From the IMG/VR virus record IMGVR_UViG_3300045988_147856: a stretch of DNA of 64,000 bases; one strand, given 5' to 3'. The stretch comes from a virus. A model generated the notes under the pieces. It saw only the letters and a program-made list of their open reading frames with translations, was not told the DNA's origin and made no database searches. Both the position numbers and the translations under genes were made by a program. Shown here piece by piece: positions 1 to 3,355 of this stretch (the stretch's first letter is position 1; each line of letters opens with the position of its first letter).

Positions 1-530
1 GCAAACTCCCGAAAGCCAAAGAGTTCAAGCGCTGGGTAACGGCGGAAGTGCTTCCAGCAATCCGCAAAACAGGCGGCTATGTAAACGATACGAAACAGTT
101 CGTCGATTACTACTTTGCGGACTGCAATACATATGGGCGAGAAGCTATTACGCTTATGCTTAACGAAACAAAACGAATGGCAAATCAGTTAAAAGCTCAG
201 GCTCCGAAGGTGCTGTTCGCTGAGGCTGTAGAAGGCTCGAAGACATCTATTCCAGTCGGCGACCTTGCGAAGCTTATAAAGCAGAACGGCGTCGATATTG
301 GACAGAATCGTCTCTTCTCGTGGCTGAGAATGAATGACTATCTGATAAAGTCGGGCGACAGAAAGAATATGCCGACGCAGAAGTCTATGGACTTAGGTCT
401 GTTCGAGGTTAAGATATCGACTTTCTACAGACCCGATGGCACGGTAGATATCGCGAAGACGCCGAAAGTCACAGGTAGGGGTCAGACTTATCTTATTAAC
501 AAATTCTTGTCGAGTTTGAAGGGGGCGTAA
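1..530 (+). CDS. Phage antirepressor (end of Bro-N/ANT domain plus KilAC-type C-terminal domain); 5' end lies outside the window
   Basis: The frame is open from nt 3 (KLPKAKEFKRWVTAEVLPAIRKTGGY, a typical Bro-N/ANT end). It continues through listed ORF 48..530 (GQNRLFSWLRMNDYLIK, KilAC-like). Confidence 0.65.
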   Translation, partial: KLPKAKEFKRWVTAEVLPAIRKTGGYVNDTKQFVDYYFADCNTYGREAITLMLNETKRMANQLKAQAPKVLFAEAVEGSKTSIPVGDLAKLIKQNGVDIGQNRLFSWLRMNDYLIKSGDRKNMPTQKSMDLGLFEVKISTFYRPDGTVDIAKTPKVTGRGQTYLINKFLSSLKGA

Positions 531-535
531 ATTTA

Positions 536-557
536 ACCCAAAAGGAATTGGGTTTTG
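536..557 (+). terminator. Intrinsic terminator-like hairpin after the antirepressor gene
   Basis: Stem ACCCAA, loop AAGGAA, stem TTGGGT, followed by TTT. Confidence 0.4.
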
Positions 558-857
558 AAAGGTTAACCATGATAGACAGGTTTTATGATTTTGATTATAA
601 CAGATAATATCCTACAAATAGATGGTAGGGAACGACTGTCACTCGTCCGTGCCATGTGGGTTTTCCTTCTTTTTTTGCAGGTCTTTATAAGTTCGATTAT
701 AACTGATAAGATCTTGCAAATTGAAGTGATCAACTCATAAGTTGACATATGTATTACTCCTTCCTTAGAGACTTGCGAGGTGCGAATAGCTGCGCTCGCT
801 GTACCCCTATAAGTAATACTATTATGGTTGACCTTTTAAAGCCCAATTCCTTGTTTG
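537..857. repeat. Imperfect 32-bp inverted repeats flanking a 257-bp cassette; a third, direct copy lies at 2153-2175
   Basis: 537-568 (cccaaaaggaattgggttttgaaaggttaacc) matches the reverse complement of 826-857 at 25 of 32 positions. aaaaggaatcgggttttga recurs after the MTase stop at 2153. Confidence 0.55.
563..748 (-). CDS. Small 61-aa protein with an internal duplication, antisense to the neighbouring genes; possible holin-like or type I toxin-like peptide
   Basis: Strong RBS AAGGAAGGAG lies 8 nt before the ATG. The N-terminus is MSTYELITSICKILSVIIELIK, and SICKILSVIIELIK is repeated as SICRILSVIIKIIK (DNA repeats 593-625 and 695-728). Confidence 0.4.
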   Translation of the reverse strand: MSTYELITSICKILSVIIELIKTCKKRRKTHMARTSDSRSLPSICRILSVIIKIIKPVYHG

Positions 858-878
858 ATAAAATTAAAAGGAGCGTGA

Positions 879-2153
879 ACCAGTATAAAGAAAATCCTTA
901 TAGGCGGTAGCCCTTGTACAAAATGGAGTATCGCTCAGAAAAACGGAAGAGAAGTTTTGCCTAAAGGTGTCGGCTGGGAGCTGTTCGAGAACTATCGGAT
1001 AGCGAAAGAAAAATTCCAGCCCGACATCTTTTTATATGAGAATAACAAGTCGGCGGCTCAACCCATAAAAGACGCGATTTACTCTGCTCTTGGTGGGGGC
1101 AAAGACTCATCAGTTCGGCTTACACACATAGACAGTGCGTTGGTTTCGGCGCAACATCGTCAGAGGTTTTATGTTACGAATTTTGGTGATATAGAACAAC
1201 CAGAAGATAGAGGAATTTTACTTTGCGATGTACTTGAAAGCGGAAAAGATTTGTCTTGCCGCGAAAAGGCGTATACGCTTACAGCCAGCTATGGCGGAGC
1301 GGTAGCGTGGAACACCTTGGAAAGAAATCAACGAACTATGGTTGCAGAGCCAGTATATGTAGAATTTGCGGTTGGCGAATCAATTCAAAAAATGATTCCT
1401 GCTGTTGTTGATAGATTTGGTTATTTACCTGAAAAATTTAATGCATACAACCGTACTGAAATAAAAGATAAATCTCCGACACTTACAACGGGAAGTATGG
1501 TTACAAGCAGTTGTGCCACTACGATTTTGACGCCGATACGCATAGGAACTATAGAAAGCAATGTAAAGAATAAGTCGCACGACAGCAAACAATATCGTGT
1601 ATATAGTCCCGACGGAAAAGCAACTACGCTTTGTGGACAAGGCGGCGGAGTCGGCGCAAAAACTGGATTGTATGCCTGTCCCATAAACGAAATTGACGGC
1701 AAGCCGATATACACGGTTAAGAATGGATTAATAACCATCAAGGACAAACAATACCCGATTAAGCTCGCCGATGGCCATTACCTTATACGAAAGCTTACAC
1801 CGTTAGAATGTGAGAGACTGCAAACTCTTCCGGGCGGTTATACGAGCGGAGTTAGTGATACTCAGCGATATCGTGCTATCGGCAATGGGTGGACGGCAGA
1901 GGTTATTATACATATTTTAAATCATGCTCTTAAAGATATCCCGAGAGACCAAGAGCTTGTAGTCTTGTCACTTTACGACGGAATAGCAACAGGTAGGTAC
2001 TGTCTGGATAAGATGGGCTTTACGAATGTCAAGTATTATGCTTATGAAATAGACCCATATCCGATAAAGATAGCGATGTCAAACTATCCCGATATCATCC
2101 AGTGTGGCGATGCCTTTCGGGTTAGGGATGATGATTGGAAAATTCCGGACTAA
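879..2153 (+). CDS. DNA (cytosine-5) methyltransferase with circularly permuted motif order (IV-VI-VIII-TRD-IX-X-I-II-III); start codon unresolved
   Basis: - Motif order seen: GGSPCTKWS (IV, 903-929), FLYENN (VI), QHRQRFYV (VIII), RKLTPLECERLQTLPGGYT (IX), AIGNGWT (X), then VLSLYDGIATG (I) and YYAYEID (II) at the C-terminus.
- An in-frame stop sits at 876-878.
- The first canonical start is TTG at 957, downstream of the PC motif. Confidence 0.75.
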   Translation, partial: TSIKKILIGGSPCTKWSIAQKNGREVLPKGVGWELFENYRIAKEKFQPDIFLYENNKSAAQPIKDAIYSALGGGKDSSVRLTHIDSALVSAQHRQRFYVTNFGDIEQPEDRGILLCDVLESGKDLSCREKAYTLTASYGGAVAWNTLERNQRTMVAEPVYVEFAVGESIQKMIPAVVDRFGYLPEKFNAYNRTEIKDKSPTLTTGSMVTSSCATTILTPIRIGTIESNVKNKSHDSKQYRVYSPDGKATTLCGQGGGVGAKTGLYACPINEIDGKPIYTVKNGLITIKDKQYPIKLADGHYLIRKLTPLECERLQTLPGGYTSGVSDTQRYRAIGNGWTAEVIIHILNHALKDIPRDQELVVLSLYDGIATGRYCLDKMGFTNVKYYAYEIDPYPIKIAMSNYPDIIQCGDAFRVRDDDWKIPD

Positions 2154-2202
2154 AAGGAATCGGGTTTTGATTTGAAAAATGAAAATGAAAAGGGGAGATG
2201 AA

Positions 2203-2808
2203 ATGGCTCAGGATTGGAGCGGCGATGCAAACTCTGTGTACAAAATTATCGGGGCGTCTAACCACTCAAACGAAAACAGGGCAGACGACGACTACTACGC
2301 GACTGACCCGAAGGCGGTAGAGGAGTTGCTGAAACGAGAGAAATTCTCTCACTATGTGTGGGAGCCGGCTTGTGGTGGAGGACACATATCAAAAGTATTG
2401 GAGGCTCACGGTTACGACGTTCTGTCGAGTGATATTGTGGATAGGGGTTATCCGAATACATATGTGGCGAACTTTTTGAGAACCAAATCTCATCCCACGA
2501 AATATATACCACGCGACATTATCACGAACCCGCCGTACAAATATGCTAAGGAATTTATAGAGAAAGCCTTAAAGTTATCTATGGATTCAACTAAAATAGC
2601 TATGTTCCTCAAGGTCACATTTCTTGAGGGCAAGGCAAGACGGGAATTGTTTGATAAAGCTCCACCGAAATATGTGTATGTATTCTCCGGTAGAGTGAAC
2701 TGTGCTAAGAACGGCGACTTTAGTAAAGCTGAGTCGAGCGCCGTGGCGTATGCGTGGTTTGTTTGGGAAAAGGGGTTCAAGGGCAAACCGAAAATTAGAT
2801 GGATTTAA
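2203..2808 (+). CDS. SAM-dependent DNA methyltransferase, N6-adenine/N4-cytosine type (NPPY)
   Basis: RBS AAAGGGGAG precedes the ATG at 2203. Motifs: YYATDP, EPACGGGHI (SAM-binding loop) and IITNPPY (catalytic). Confidence 0.65.
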   Translation: MAQDWSGDANSVYKIIGASNHSNENRADDDYYATDPKAVEELLKREKFSHYVWEPACGGGHISKVLEAHGYDVLSSDIVDRGYPNTYVANFLRTKSHPTKYIPRDIITNPPYKYAKEFIEKALKLSMDSTKIAMFLKVTFLEGKARRELFDKAPPKYVYVFSGRVNCAKNGDFSKAESSAVAYAWFVWEKGFKGKPKIRWI

Positions 2809-2830
2809 ACCAAGGAGGAGTATTGGTTAA

Positions 2831-3355
2831 ATGAAAATGGATAAGGTTGCGGGGTCGGGAAATGACGAATTCTACACACCCGCATATGCGATTAGACCAA
2901 TCCTTAAATATGTAGAGGGGGGAGCAAAAGTCTGGTGTCCCTTTGATACAGCAGACAGTTTGTTTGTAAAAGAGCTTAGGGCACACGGCTGTGAAGTGAT
3001 ACCGACTCATATCGATAACGGACAAGACTTCTTTAGTATAGAGATTCCCAAGTGTGACTATATAATTTCCAACCCGCCGTACTCGCGCAAAGGAGATGTA
3101 TTAGAGAGATTATTTGAGACGGGTAAGCCGTTTGCTATGCTCGTTGGGGTAGTCGGCTTGTTTGAAAGTCAAAAGAGATTTGATATGTTTAAACAAAATG
3201 AGTTCGAGATAATGTATCTCAATAGGCGTGTTTCGTATTTTAAATCATATGACGACGAAAAGCCTTCGCTAAACCCGCCGTTTTCGAGCGTTTATGTGTG
3301 TCATGGGATGTTGCCGAAAACTATTGTATTTGAGGAAATAAGCAAGGCAGGATAA
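2831..3355 (+). CDS. Second small NPPY-type DNA methyltransferase
   Basis: Motifs EFYTP and IISNPPYSRKGD. It shares the RBS context TTTAAACCAAGGAGG with the next gene. Confidence 0.65.
   Translation: MKMDKVAGSGNDEFYTPAYAIRPILKYVEGGAKVWCPFDTADSLFVKELRAHGCEVIPTHIDNGQDFFSIEIPKCDYIISNPPYSRKGDVLERLFETGKPFAMLVGVVGLFESQKRFDMFKQNEFEIMYLNRRVSYFKSYDDEKPSLNPPFSSVYVCHGMLPKTIVFEEISKAG

What the first reader, a model, noticed from the sequence alone, without database searches (positions are those of the whole stretch)
867..2153. Circularly permuted C5-cytosine methyltransferase whose catalytic Pro-Cys motif lies upstream of any canonical start codon
**Permuted order**
- One ORF carries a single complete set of C5-MTase motifs in the order IV (LIGGSPCTKWS), VI (FLYENN), VIII (QHRQRFYV), TRD, IX (RKLTPLECERLQTLPGGYT), X (AIGNGWT), then I (VLSLYDGIATG), II (YYAYEID) and III (NYPDIIQCGD), ending DDDWKIPD-stop.
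- In ordinary enzymes the ...QxGD... segment leads directly into xxLIGGSPC. The break therefore falls exactly between motifs III and IV, with X fused to I.
- The permuted C5-MTases I know of (plant DRM type VI-X-I-V; M.BssHII type IX-X first) use other breakpoints.

**Start-codon problem**
- An in-frame stop sits at 876-878.
- The SD AAAGGAG is at 867-873.
- The only codons before the PC motif are near-cognates (ATA 885, ATC 894, ATA 900).
- The first canonical start (TTG 957) would delete the catalytic Cys.

The gene is therefore either a non-canonically initiated permuted enzyme, a Cys-less DNA-binding derivative, or a rearrangement remnant.
Basis: partly seen in the sequence, partly recalled or inferred. 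Interest (0 to 1): 0.7.

Follow-up and report, generated by a model that had tools for sequence, protein, structure and literature searches.

The report
Permuted phage cytosine methyltransferase, ATA start
This phage gene encodes a complete DNA cytosine-5 methyltransferase whose sequence blocks are in a rotated order that a 2018 survey did not find in nature. It belongs to a large unannotated family from gut Clostridia phages, and in this lineage it appears to start at a weak ATA codon, so gene finders truncate it.

Summary
**Observation.** It is confirmed in every detail.

**The permutation is real.**
- The frame 879-2153 carries one full set of C5-MTase motifs in the order IV-VI-VIII-TRD-IX-X-I-II-III.
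- Moving the last 68 residues to the front gives a single end-to-end Pfam match.
- It is not an artefact or a remnant. More than 100 independent contigs, down to 42% identity, and about 100 of the top 150 cluster representatives share the order.
- In a neighbour-joining tree without bootstrap, the permuted proteins form one clade nested among canonical-order relatives. Tandem-fused intermediates exist.
- A 2018 REBASE survey found natural permutants only in the variable region. This III|IV break matches only engineered "Type C" enzymes.

**The start-codon problem has an explanation.**
- The wider family starts with ATG six codons before GGSPC. Window ATA 885 is that codon.
- The TGA at 876 is the stop codon of the upstream antirepressor gene in relatives that lack a 348-nt insertion (window 518-865). 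The "SD" is that gene's last codons.
- The 25 codons after ATA show synonymous-only variation in 14 codons and a replacement in 1. TTG 957 is not conserved.

**Verdict.** This is most likely a functional permuted enzyme that initiates at AUA, a start that was probably once coupled to translation of the antirepressor gene. It is a new variant of a known kind.

The parts
3..530 (+). 3' part of a Bro-N/ANT-type antirepressor gene. It runs off the window's 5' end. Its stop codon TAA 528-530 is supplied by the first bases of the insertion.
   Evidence: PHROG anti-repressor Ant, 3.7e-51. Relatives carry PF02498/PF03374 genes in the same position.
518..865 (.). 348-nt insertion between the antirepressor gene and the MTase. 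It has imperfect inverted-repeat arms at 528-575 and 819-866. It is flanked by an imperfect 12-nt duplication: TTGAAGGGGGCG at 516-527 and TTAAAAGGAGCG at 864-875.
   Evidence: Inverted repeat I1 is 48 nt and 81% complementary. The insertion is absent from relatives L009, L016, L038 and L085, where the antirepressor gene abuts the MTase. It is seen only at this locus.
855..878 (+). Seven-codon mini-ORF, TTG ATA AAA TTA AAA GGA GCG TGA, in frame with the MTase. In relatives with CGA instead of TGA, gene callers use this TTG as the start.
   Evidence: No SD lies upstream of the TTG, by reading.
867..873 (+). Shine-Dalgarno-like AAAGGAG, 11 nt upstream of ATA 885. In empty-site relatives it encodes the last residues (K-G-A) of the antirepressor.
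   Evidence: GGAG-to-start spacings of 10-14 nt occur in 6 of 25 genes in this window.
876..878 (+). In-frame TGA. It is homologous to the antirepressor gene's stop codon in empty-site relatives, and is a relic here.
   Evidence: Alignment A3. All 8 empty-site loci have TGA; filled sites have CGA 19 times and TGA 5 times. TGA is a normal stop in this window.
885..887 (+). ATA, the proposed initiation codon. It lies six codons before GG of GGSPC, the position of ATG, GTG or TTG in most of the family.
   Evidence: 62 ATG, 5 GTG and 3 TTG lie 4-8 codons upstream (mostly at -6), against 17 ATA and 1 ATT at -6, in 99 distinct contexts. ATA and the following AAG are invariant in clade A.
885..2153 (+). 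Circularly permuted C5-cytosine DNA methyltransferase ORF of 422 codons plus TAA. The order is IV-VI-VIII-TRD-IX-X-I-II-III.
912..917 (+). Catalytic Pro-Cys of motif IV (GGSPCTKWS).
   Evidence: It is invariant in 92 aligned homologues.
1206..1784 (+). Variable or target-recognition region (residues ~108-300). It appears to hold three modules, each ending in ..VAEP, ..ILTP or ..LYACP.
   Evidence: Relatives differ by whole modules: P0013 lacks ~62 residues, and P0048 and P0074 carry another module. The modular reading is inference.
1875..1994 (+). Junction of motif X (AIGNGWT), the C-terminal helix, the linker KDIPRDQE and motif I (VLSLYDGIATG).
   Evidence: NtDRM aligns collinearly across query residues 265-382.
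2034..2111 (+). Motifs II (YYAYEID) and III (NYPDIIQCGD) near the C-terminus. The protein ends DDDWKIPD, where strand beta-4 of a canonical enzyme would begin.
2152..2170 (+). 19-nt copy (18 of 19) of the core of the insertion's left arm (540-558), directly after the MTase stop codon.
   Evidence: 3 copies in the window against 0.07 expected.
2203..3355 (+). Two further DNA methyltransferase genes, 2203-2808 and 2831-3355, with NPPY motifs. Together with the C5 enzyme they form a three-gene methylase block.
   Evidence: phrog_799 DNA methyltransferase, 1.8e-67 and 9.1e-30. Synteny is conserved.

Best explanation
**What it is.** Window 885-2153 encodes a complete and probably active orphan C5-cytosine DNA methyltransferase from a temperate phage of gut Clostridia. 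Its chain is a natural circular permutation of the canonical fold. It begins with the strand that leads into the catalytic Pro-Cys loop (motif IV). It runs through VI, VIII, the target-recognition modules, IX and X. A short linker then continues into the AdoMet-binding motifs I-III, which end the protein.

**Family and origin.** It belongs to a large, apparently monophyletic family. The family arose from canonical-order phage enzymes, most simply by tandem duplication, fusion and trimming.

**Likely function (inferred).** It methylates phage DNA, possibly at several sites given about three TRD modules. Together with the two neighbouring amino-methyltransferases, this would let the phage escape host restriction.

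**Translation start.** In this lineage translation starts at AUA 885, the homologue of the family's AUG, using AAAGGAG at 867-873. In the ancestral arrangement the AUA lay 0-6 nt from the stop codon of the upstream antirepressor gene. Initiation was therefore probably by termination-reinitiation coupling, and output was low.

**State in this window.** A 348-nt insertion has separated the two genes. The old stop codon TGA 876 and the SD remain as a relic, so initiation now depends on the SD and AUA alone.

**Shown.**
- The permutation.
- The family, its origin pattern and the intact catalytic motifs.
- The homology of ATA to the family's ATG.
- The origin of the TGA.
- Purifying selection on the N-terminal codons.

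**Inferred.**
- Actual use of AUA.
- Coupling to the antirepressor gene.
- 5mC activity and its biological role.
For: **Permutation and completeness**
- All catalytic and AdoMet-binding residues are present and invariant across 92 homologues: PC, ENN, QxRxR, DG.ATG, YEID, GD and GNGW.

**Family**
- 79 IMG/VR loci are collinear with the window protein down to 42% identity.
- 53 loci lie in Clostridia genomes.
- 961 representatives of 50%-identity clusters score E<=1e-30. About 100 of the top 150 are permuted and about 22 are canonical.
- All 57 permuted representatives form a single clade nested in canonical relatives.
- Tandem fusions P0136 and P0239 exist.

**Start codon**
- The family start M-[A]IK[IL]LIGGSPC has an ATG six codons before GG, preceded by an SD.
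- Window ATA 885 occupies that codon.
- Near-cognates with no canonical alternative occur at the same position in three junction types next to the antirepressor stop: TGA-N6-ATA, the overlapping ATAA, and TAA-GAT-ATT.
- The same is seen in the unrelated L055, behind a conserved SD hairpin where relatives have ATG or TTG.

**Origin of the TGA.** TGA 876 aligns with the antirepressor stop in empty-site loci. It is kept in loci with intact ORFs of 358-423 codons.

**Selection.** Among 10 haplotypes, 14 of 25 codons downstream of ATA vary only synonymously and 1 varies non-synonymously.

**Feasibility of AUA.** AUA initiates at roughly 1-2% of AUG in E. coli (bioRxiv 10.1101/063800). An 11-nt spacing lies within the range seen in this window.
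Against: - There is no experimental evidence for the N-terminus, the protein or 5mC.
- The 11-nt SD spacing is on the long side, and AUA is a very weak start.
- In this window the insertion has removed the proposed coupling partner, so expression may be very low or lost.
- Most filled-site relatives have changed TGA to CGA. This opens the frame from TTG 855 and could mean the TGA state is disadvantageous.
- A promoter-like site at 835-864 would place a transcript start inside the SD.
- Two AlphaFold runs gave unusable models (pLDDT 36 and 44), so the fold is supported by sequence only.
- The tree has no bootstrap support.
- The fetched loci are biased towards relatives of the query.
Confidence: 0.72

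Rival explanations
1. The real start is TTG 855, as gene callers annotate in relatives (MIKLKGAR...). The window's TGA 876 would then be a CGA-to-TGA nonsense mutation. The gene would be a fresh pseudogene, or would depend on TGA read-through.
For: - 19 of 24 filled-site loci have CGA and an open frame from TTG 855.
- Database proteins P0001, P0002, P0011 and P0020 start there.
- The MDCSK... sister clade shows that an N-terminal extension of about 15 residues is tolerated.
Against: - TGA is the state in all 8 empty-site loci, where it is the antirepressor's stop codon and no TTG exists. TGA is therefore ancestral and CGA derived.
- TGA-bearing loci keep intact ORFs of 358-423 codons under purifying selection.
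- TTG 855 has no SD.
- The codon after the TGA varies freely between ACC, GTC and ATC.
Confidence: 0.1
2. Initiation is at AUA 885 or a neighbouring near-cognate codon, but only by reinitiation. Ribosomes would translate the seven-codon mini-ORF 855-878 and terminate at TGA 876, mimicking the old coupling to the antirepressor gene.
For: The TGA-N6-ATA geometry is the same as in empty-site relatives. The mini-ORF is in place in the window.
Against: TTG 855 lacks an SD, so few ribosomes would translate the mini-ORF. No direct evidence exists. ATC 894 and ATA 900 are not at the family's start position and vary synonymously (ATC/ATT and ATA/ATT).
Confidence: 0.12
3. A Cys-less protein is made from TTG 957 and acts as a DNA-binding or regulatory derivative without catalysis.
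For: TTG 957 is the first canonical start. 22 of 120 database homologues are annotated from this point as MPKGVGWELF....
Against: - TTG 957 is replaced by CTG or TTA in close relatives.
- The upstream 24 codons, including GGSPC, are under strong purifying selection.
- The truncated calls come from loci that also have ATA at -6 and no canonical start. They are annotation artefacts.
Confidence: 0.03
4. The permuted order is an assembly artefact, or a recent truncated tandem duplication specific to this contig.
For: None beyond the unusual order. Tandem-fused enzymes do exist in the wider family.
Against: - The same order is present in more than 130 independent loci from different samples, assemblers and hosts.
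- The order is conserved to 42% identity and the clade is monophyletic.
- There is exactly one copy of each motif.
Confidence: 0.01

Closest known systems
Canonical-order phage and prophage C5-MTases of the same signature group (for example P0264 and P0242; more distantly the Vibrio phage ICP1 and NVP1133O Dcm-like enzymes)
   Same: They share the signature blocks GGSPCT.WSIAQ, YENN, SALVSAQNRQR, IYEVK.G.I.IKGK.YPIKL.DG.YIIRKLT..EC.RLQT.P and GNGWT. Identity is 38-47% over IV-X and 43% over I-III. They also have modular TRDs and inteins at the catalytic Cys.
   Different: Their order is I-X. Here I-III have moved behind X, and the chain starts at motif IV.
Natural permuted C5-MTases of the M.BssHII, M.Alw26I, M2.Eco31I, M.Esp3I and M2.BsaI type ('Type H' of Albert et al. 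2018, PMC5944983)
   Same: Both are circular permutations of the C5-MTase fold with X joined to I. Permutation by duplication is the presumed origin of both.
   Different: Their new termini lie in the variable region (IX-X first, then I-VIII), which keeps the two structural domains intact. Here the break is between III and IV, inside the large domain.
Plant DRM2 / NtDRM (domains-rearranged methyltransferases)
   Same: Both have the X-to-I fusion, and NtDRM aligns collinearly across it (query 265-382, E 2.5e-6). Both carry DNMT3-like motif I (LS.FDGIATG) and an SPC motif.
   Different: The DRM order is VI-X-I-V, so the Pro-Cys motif is near the C-terminus. DRM is eukaryotic and has UBA domains. 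The breakpoint differs.
Engineered 'Type C' permutants (cp122M.MpeI) and laboratory-evolved M.HaeIII permutants that start between II/III and III/IV (Albert 2018; Peisajovich et al. 2006, as cited there)
   Same: They have the same topology class, with the new N-terminus between motifs III and IV. This shows the topology can be active.
   Different: They are artificial, and cp122M.MpeI had low activity and poor expression. The paper reports no natural counterpart.
DNMT3A/3B/3C catalytic domains (best solved-structure matches)
   Same: Motifs I-III, IV-VIII and IX-X each align, with E down to about 1e-9.
   Different: They have canonical order, a eukaryotic regulatory context and a much shorter TRD.
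Genes with near-cognate starts or coupled translation (E. coli infC AUU; ATGA-type stop/start overlaps) - from general knowledge
   Same: A weak AUA or AUU codon sits at a conserved start position next to an upstream stop codon, including an ATAA overlap.
   Different: AUA is rarer than AUU as a natural start, and nothing has been tested here.

Membership tests
C5-cytosine DNA methyltransferase (Pfam PF00145) | Score above Pfam's gathering threshold | tested here: met
   67.4 bits against a cut-off of 22. The score is 82.6 bits, covering profile positions 3-320 of 324, after de-permutation.
C5-cytosine DNA methyltransferase (Pfam PF00145) | Catalytic motifs: IV Pro-Cys, VI ENV-type Glu, VIII QxRxR | tested here: met
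   GGSPC, YENN (an ENN variant) and QHRQRF are present. They are invariant in 92 homologues.
C5-cytosine DNA methyltransferase (Pfam PF00145) | AdoMet-binding motifs I (FxGxG type), II (acidic), III (Asp) and X (GNG) | tested here: met
   LSLYDGIATG, YEID, CGD and GNGW are present.
C5-cytosine DNA methyltransferase (Pfam PF00145) | Canonical linear order I to X | tested here: not met
   The order is IV-X then I-III.
C5-cytosine DNA methyltransferase (Pfam PF00145) | Produces 5-methylcytosine in DNA | not testable with these tools
   Needs expression plus bisulfite, EM-seq or nanopore sequencing.
NCBIfam TIGR00675 dcm | Score above the curated cut-off | tested here: not met
   67.9 bits against a cut-off of 100.65.
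Type H permuted C5-MTases (M.BssHII-like) | New termini in the variable region; IX-X precede I-VIII | tested here: not met
   The TRD, IX and X are internal. The N-terminus is at motif IV. Family definition from PMC5944983.
DRM-type permuted C5-MTases | Order VI-X-I-V, with Pro-Cys in the C-terminal half | tested here: not met
   Pro-Cys is at residues 10-11 of 422. Only the X-to-I junction is shared.
Natural IV-X-I-III ('Type C') permuted phage C5-MTase clade (unnamed; partly phrog_17284) | Collinear full-length alignment with members, starting M..[IL]L.GGSPC and ending after motif III | tested here: met
   92-93% identity at 100% coverage to P0001-P0004. Collinear down to 42% identity. Lies inside the permuted clade. 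phrog_17284 scores 5.4e-87 across the junction.
Non-AUG (near-cognate) initiated bacterial genes | Near-cognate codon at the position of the orthologues' AUG, with an SD and no canonical alternative | tested here: met
Non-AUG (near-cognate) initiated bacterial genes | Experimentally determined N-terminus or initiation site | not testable with these tools
   Needs N-terminal proteomics or start-site ribosome profiling.
Stop-codon-recoded phage (TGA read as sense) | TGA frequent inside conserved genes; genes do not end in TGA | tested here: not met
   44 of 107 ORFs of at least 100 aa end in TGA, including the 744-aa, 626-aa and 1049-aa ORFs.

The most novel reading that the evidence does not exclude
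Gut Clostridia phages carry a large, single-origin class of naturally permuted C5-methyltransferases, with order IV-X-I-III. The literature searched here reports this topology only for engineered enzymes, and one survey explicitly found it absent from nature. The duplication intermediates still exist.

One lineage of the class has given up canonical start codons. It makes the enzyme from AUA or AUU by termination-reinitiation behind an antirepressor gene. Methylase dosage would then be tied to the lysis-lysogeny circuit and kept very low.
Probability: 0.45. Interest if true: 0.7.

Novelty: new variant of a known kind. Interest (0 to 1): 0.6.

Why it matters
**Enzyme topology.** C5-MTases are a textbook case of a nearly invariant motif order. 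The one systematic survey found (REBASE, 2018) concluded that nature permits only permutations that keep the two domains intact. A large natural family broken between motifs III and IV contradicts that conclusion. It also provides natural counterparts to the laboratory 'permutation-by-duplication' experiments, with fused intermediates at hand.

**Annotation.** Gene callers truncate about a quarter of the close homologues to Cys-less or 'MGGSPC' proteins (30 of 120). A GenBank phage copy is labelled 'hypothetical protein'. Phage methylome and anti-restriction surveys therefore under-count these enzymes.

**Translation.** The locus is a clean comparative case of AUA or AUU initiation and translational coupling in Firmicutes phages. 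It can be tested directly.

Tried and rejected
- **Structure prediction.** Two AlphaFold2 runs, with alignments of 25 and 92 sequences, gave mean pLDDT 35.7 and 44.1. The alignments were too shallow, the models are unusable, and no fold search was run.
- **Structured RNA upstream.** An Rfam scan of 400-2400 found only chance-level hits. No riboswitch or ribozyme lies upstream.
- **TGA recoding.** Rejected, because TGA ends many long genes in the window.
- **Frameshifting or fusion.** I considered fusion from the overlapping ORF 749-910 or from the minus-strand 61-aa ORF. The first has no SD and neither frame can join the MTase frame, judged by reading only.
- **Invertible promoter.** I tested whether the 48-nt inverted repeats mark an inverton. 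No inverted-orientation junction was found in IMG/VR or JGI metagenome contigs. My first pattern could not discriminate, because the arms are near-palindromic.
- **Multi-copy MITE.** The insertion's arm sequence occurs only at this locus.
- **Permuted cultured Vibrio phages.** The Vibrio phage hits, including ICP1, looked full-length in tblastn but proved canonical-order on translation. Only Phage nd4 and uncultured gut phages are permuted.
- **Literature.** Three full-text searches on the permutation found no description of this permutation class. The library lacks most subscription journals and REBASE itself.
Full report

Yes.
- Reading 867-2156 in frame gives KGA*TSIKKILIGGSPCTKWS...DDDWKIPD*.
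- AAAGGAG is at 867-873 and TGA at 876-878.
- The only near-cognate codons before the Pro-Cys (912-917) are ATA 885, ATC 894 and ATA 900.
- The first ATG/GTG/TTG in frame is TTG 957.

Three independent tests confirm the motif order.
- DNMT3A aligns in three pieces: its residues 7-61 (I-III) to query 360-413, 76-177 (IV-VIII) to query 6-108, and 205-275 (IX-X) to query 276-347.
- A canonical-order relative, P0264, aligns as query 4-363 to 67-418 (E 3e-65) and query 358-413 to 1-56 (E 3e-12).
- Pfam PF00145 matches profile positions 63-320 on the native chain (67.4 bits). It matches 3-320 of 324 in one stretch (82.6 bits) when the last 68 residues are pasted in front.

There is exactly one copy of each motif.

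**2. It is a family, not an accident.**

- The word-indexed protein search returned hundreds of full-length collinear homologues. The top hits are 92-93% identical at 100% coverage.
- 79 IMG/VR loci are collinear over query residues ~5-422 down to 42% identity.
- 53 loci lie in bacterial genomes and MAGs. Nearly all are Clostridia: Oscillospiraceae, Ruminococcus, Lachnospiraceae, Butyricicoccus, Criibacterium and Christensenellales. The hosts are therefore SD-using Firmicutes.
- An exhaustive HMMER search of 1.84 billion cluster representatives gave 961 proteins at E<=1e-30. About 100 of the best 150 are permuted and about 22 have canonical order.
- I built a neighbour-joining tree from de-permuted core blocks. 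All 57 permuted representatives form one clade with no canonical sequence inside it, nested among canonical relatives. The tree has no bootstrap, so a single origin is likely but not proven.
- Two representatives, P0136 and P0239, are head-to-tail fusions of two canonical units. These are the intermediates that the permutation-by-duplication model requires.

**3. Is the topology known?**

Albert et al. 2018 (PMC5944983) searched REBASE for enzymes with motif X before motif I.
- They found 27, all permuted in the variable region ('Type H', M.BssHII-like).
- They concluded that nature favours permutations that leave the two domains intact.
- A new N-terminus between III and IV is their engineered 'Type C' (cp122M.MpeI, low activity). 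It also resembles some laboratory-evolved M.HaeIII permutants.

Plant DRM enzymes have the order VI-X-I-V. NtDRM aligns with the window protein only across the shared X-to-I junction.

Three full-text searches found no description of a natural IV-X-I-III class. I could not query REBASE, and the library lacks most subscription journals, so novelty is probable rather than certain.

Existing annotation does not recognise the class.
- NCBIfam's dcm model scores below its cut-off.
- The best PHROG across the junction is labelled 'unknown function'.
- The one complete GenBank phage with a permuted copy (Phage nd4) labels it 'hypothetical protein'.
- Vibrio phage hits, including ICP1, turned out to have canonical order.

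**4. The start-codon problem.**

*Position of the family start.* Across the wider family the gene starts M-[A]-I/K-K/R-I/L-L-I/L-GGSPC. The ATG lies six (sometimes five or seven) codons before GG and is preceded by an SD.
- In 99 distinct upstream contexts I counted 62 ATG, 5 GTG and 3 TTG 4-8 codons upstream (mostly at -6), against 17 ATA and 1 ATT at -6.
- This sample is biased towards relatives of the query.
- Window ATA 885 is exactly this codon.

*Origin of the TGA.* Alignment with relatives that lack the sequence 518-865 is decisive.
- In L009, L016, L038 and L085 the upstream Bro-N/ANT antirepressor gene ends ...SSLKGA-TGA.
- That TGA is window 876-878, and AAAGGAG encodes the antirepressor's last residues.
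- ATA follows six nucleotides later.

*Other junction types.* Two further junctions occur in sister lineages.
- GGC-ATAA, where ATA overlaps the antirepressor's TAA. This is P0118, found in 15 contigs, one source being NCBI.
- GTG-TAA-GAT-ATT, with ATT at the start position. This is P0009, found in 13 contigs.
- None of these has a canonical start upstream of position -1, so gene callers annotate them from TTG 957 or from the codon before GG.
- The more distant L055 has ATA at the same position behind a conserved SD-sequestering hairpin. Its relatives there have ATG or TTG.

*Evidence that the N-terminal codons are translated.* Among ten haplotypes of the window's clade, 14 of the 25 codons from ATA to position 957 vary only synonymously and 1 varies non-synonymously.
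- ATA and AAG are invariant.
- TTG 957 itself is TTG, CTG or TTA.
- The 'codon' after the TGA is ACC, GTC or ATC.

*Other checks.*
- TGA is an ordinary stop in this window.
- AUA supports initiation at roughly 1-2% of AUG in E. coli.
- The 11-nt GGAG-to-ATA spacing is long but within the range of this phage's own genes.

The simplest reading is initiation at AUA 885, originally by termination-reinitiation behind the antirepressor gene.

**5. What happened in this window.**

A 348-nt insertion (518-865) separates the antirepressor gene from the MTase.
- Its inverted-repeat arms are 528-575 and 819-866, 81% complementary.
- It is flanked by an imperfect 12-nt duplication of the target. Its first bases supply a new TAA for the antirepressor gene.
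- The old TGA and SD remain next to the MTase.
- All 8 empty sites have TGA. Among filled sites, 19 have CGA and 5, including the window, keep TGA (with some duplicate contigs).
- CGA opens the frame from TTG 855 inside the right arm, which is why many database proteins begin MIKLKGAR. It may be a secondary repair of lost coupling, but this is inference.

The window therefore represents the earlier filled state. Here the enzyme depends on SD plus AUA alone, so its expression may be very low.

The insertion occurs only at this locus. I found no inverted-orientation copies. Some relatives keep the insertion but have lost the MTase gene, apart from its last ~20 nt.

**6. Function.**

- All catalytic and cofactor-binding motifs are intact and invariant.
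- The variable region (~190 residues) looks like three TRD modules. Whole modules differ between close relatives. This resembles the multispecific MTases of Bacillus phages (general knowledge) and suggests, without showing, multispecificity.
- Two amino-methyltransferase genes follow directly, in conserved synteny.

The likely role is protection of phage DNA from host restriction. Activity and specificity are untested.

**7. Verdict.**

The enzyme is a member of a large, apparently undescribed natural permutation class of a well-known enzyme family. It has a well-supported but unproven AUA start.

- Structure prediction failed twice, so the fold argument rests on sequence.
- Interest is moderate to high for methyltransferase and phage-annotation specialists.
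- It is not a categorically new system.

Noticed in passing
window 518-865 (arms 528-575 / 819-866): A 348-nt insertion with 48-nt imperfect inverted repeats and a ~12-nt target duplication. It is present or absent among close relatives and supplies the antirepressor gene's new stop codon. It is found only at this locus, and no inverted orientation was seen. Its nature is unresolved: a decayed mobile element or a regulatory cassette.
   Followed up: partly
window 563-748 (-), 582-622 and 684-724: Inside the insertion lies a 61-aa minus-strand ORF with a strong SD (AAGGAAGGAG-N7-ATG) and no PHROG hit. There are also two 41-nt direct repeats spaced 102 nt apart. Relatives L004 and L005 lack one 101-nt unit.
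   Followed up: partly
window 2152-2170, 540-558, 836-854: The 19-nt motif AAAAGGAATYGGGTTTTGA occurs three times, against 0.07 expected. Two copies are in the insertion's arms and one lies directly after the MTase stop codon, so the MTase gene is bracketed by copies of the motif.
   Followed up: partly
P0133, P0138, P0176 (permuted) and P0244 (canonical): Inteins (Hint domain, and LAGLIDADG in P0244) are inserted exactly at the catalytic cysteine of GGSP|C. The reading is GGSP-CFVAGT...VVHN-CT.WS.
   Followed up: partly
P0136 (962 aa), P0239 (618 aa): Single polypeptides made of two complete canonical-order C5-MTase units in tandem. They are natural candidates for the duplication intermediate of the permutation.
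   Followed up: partly
L141, L146, L147 (IMG/VR contigs 107113, 118386, 168584): Related phages keep the insertion and the downstream methylases but lack the C5-MTase gene, apart from its last ~20 nt. The C5-MTase is therefore a dispensable cassette.
   Followed up: partly
window 1206-1784; P0013, P0048, P0074, P0082: The variable region is built of modules ending in ..VAEP or ..LYACP. These modules are swapped, lost or gained between enzymes that are otherwise ~90% identical, which suggests multispecific enzymes that exchange TRD cassettes.
   Followed up: no
L026, L031, L055, L112 (about 45 nt upstream of GGSPC): A conserved perfect hairpin, CCTCCA-GACG-TGGAGG, would sequester the SD of the MTase gene in another subfamily. 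The start codon behind it is ATG, TTG or ATA.
   Followed up: no
P0001-P0120: 22 of 120 close database homologues are annotated from MPKGVGWELF (Cys-less) and 8 from MGGSPC. The start in these lineages is systematically mis-called.
   Followed up: yes
window 2203-2808 and 2831-3355: Two small NPPY-motif methyltransferases hit phrog_799 but no NCBIfam family (Pfam was not run on the window proteins). In L005 an IS605 OrfB/TnpB gene sits where the second one lies in the window.
   Followed up: no
L034/L036/L084/L092 versus L039-L041/L093/L099: In a Gemmiger/Butyricicoccus-associated subfamily the codon just before the ATG start is TGA in some loci and TGG in others. TGG opens a long upstream frame. 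This is a second stop/sense polymorphism at the MTase start.
   Followed up: no
window 835-864 (+): A promoter-like site, TTTAAA-18-TG-TAAAAT, lies in the right arm and points at the MTase. A transcript from it would begin inside the SD. It does not exceed the chance expectation (4 sites found, 4.6 expected).
   Followed up: no
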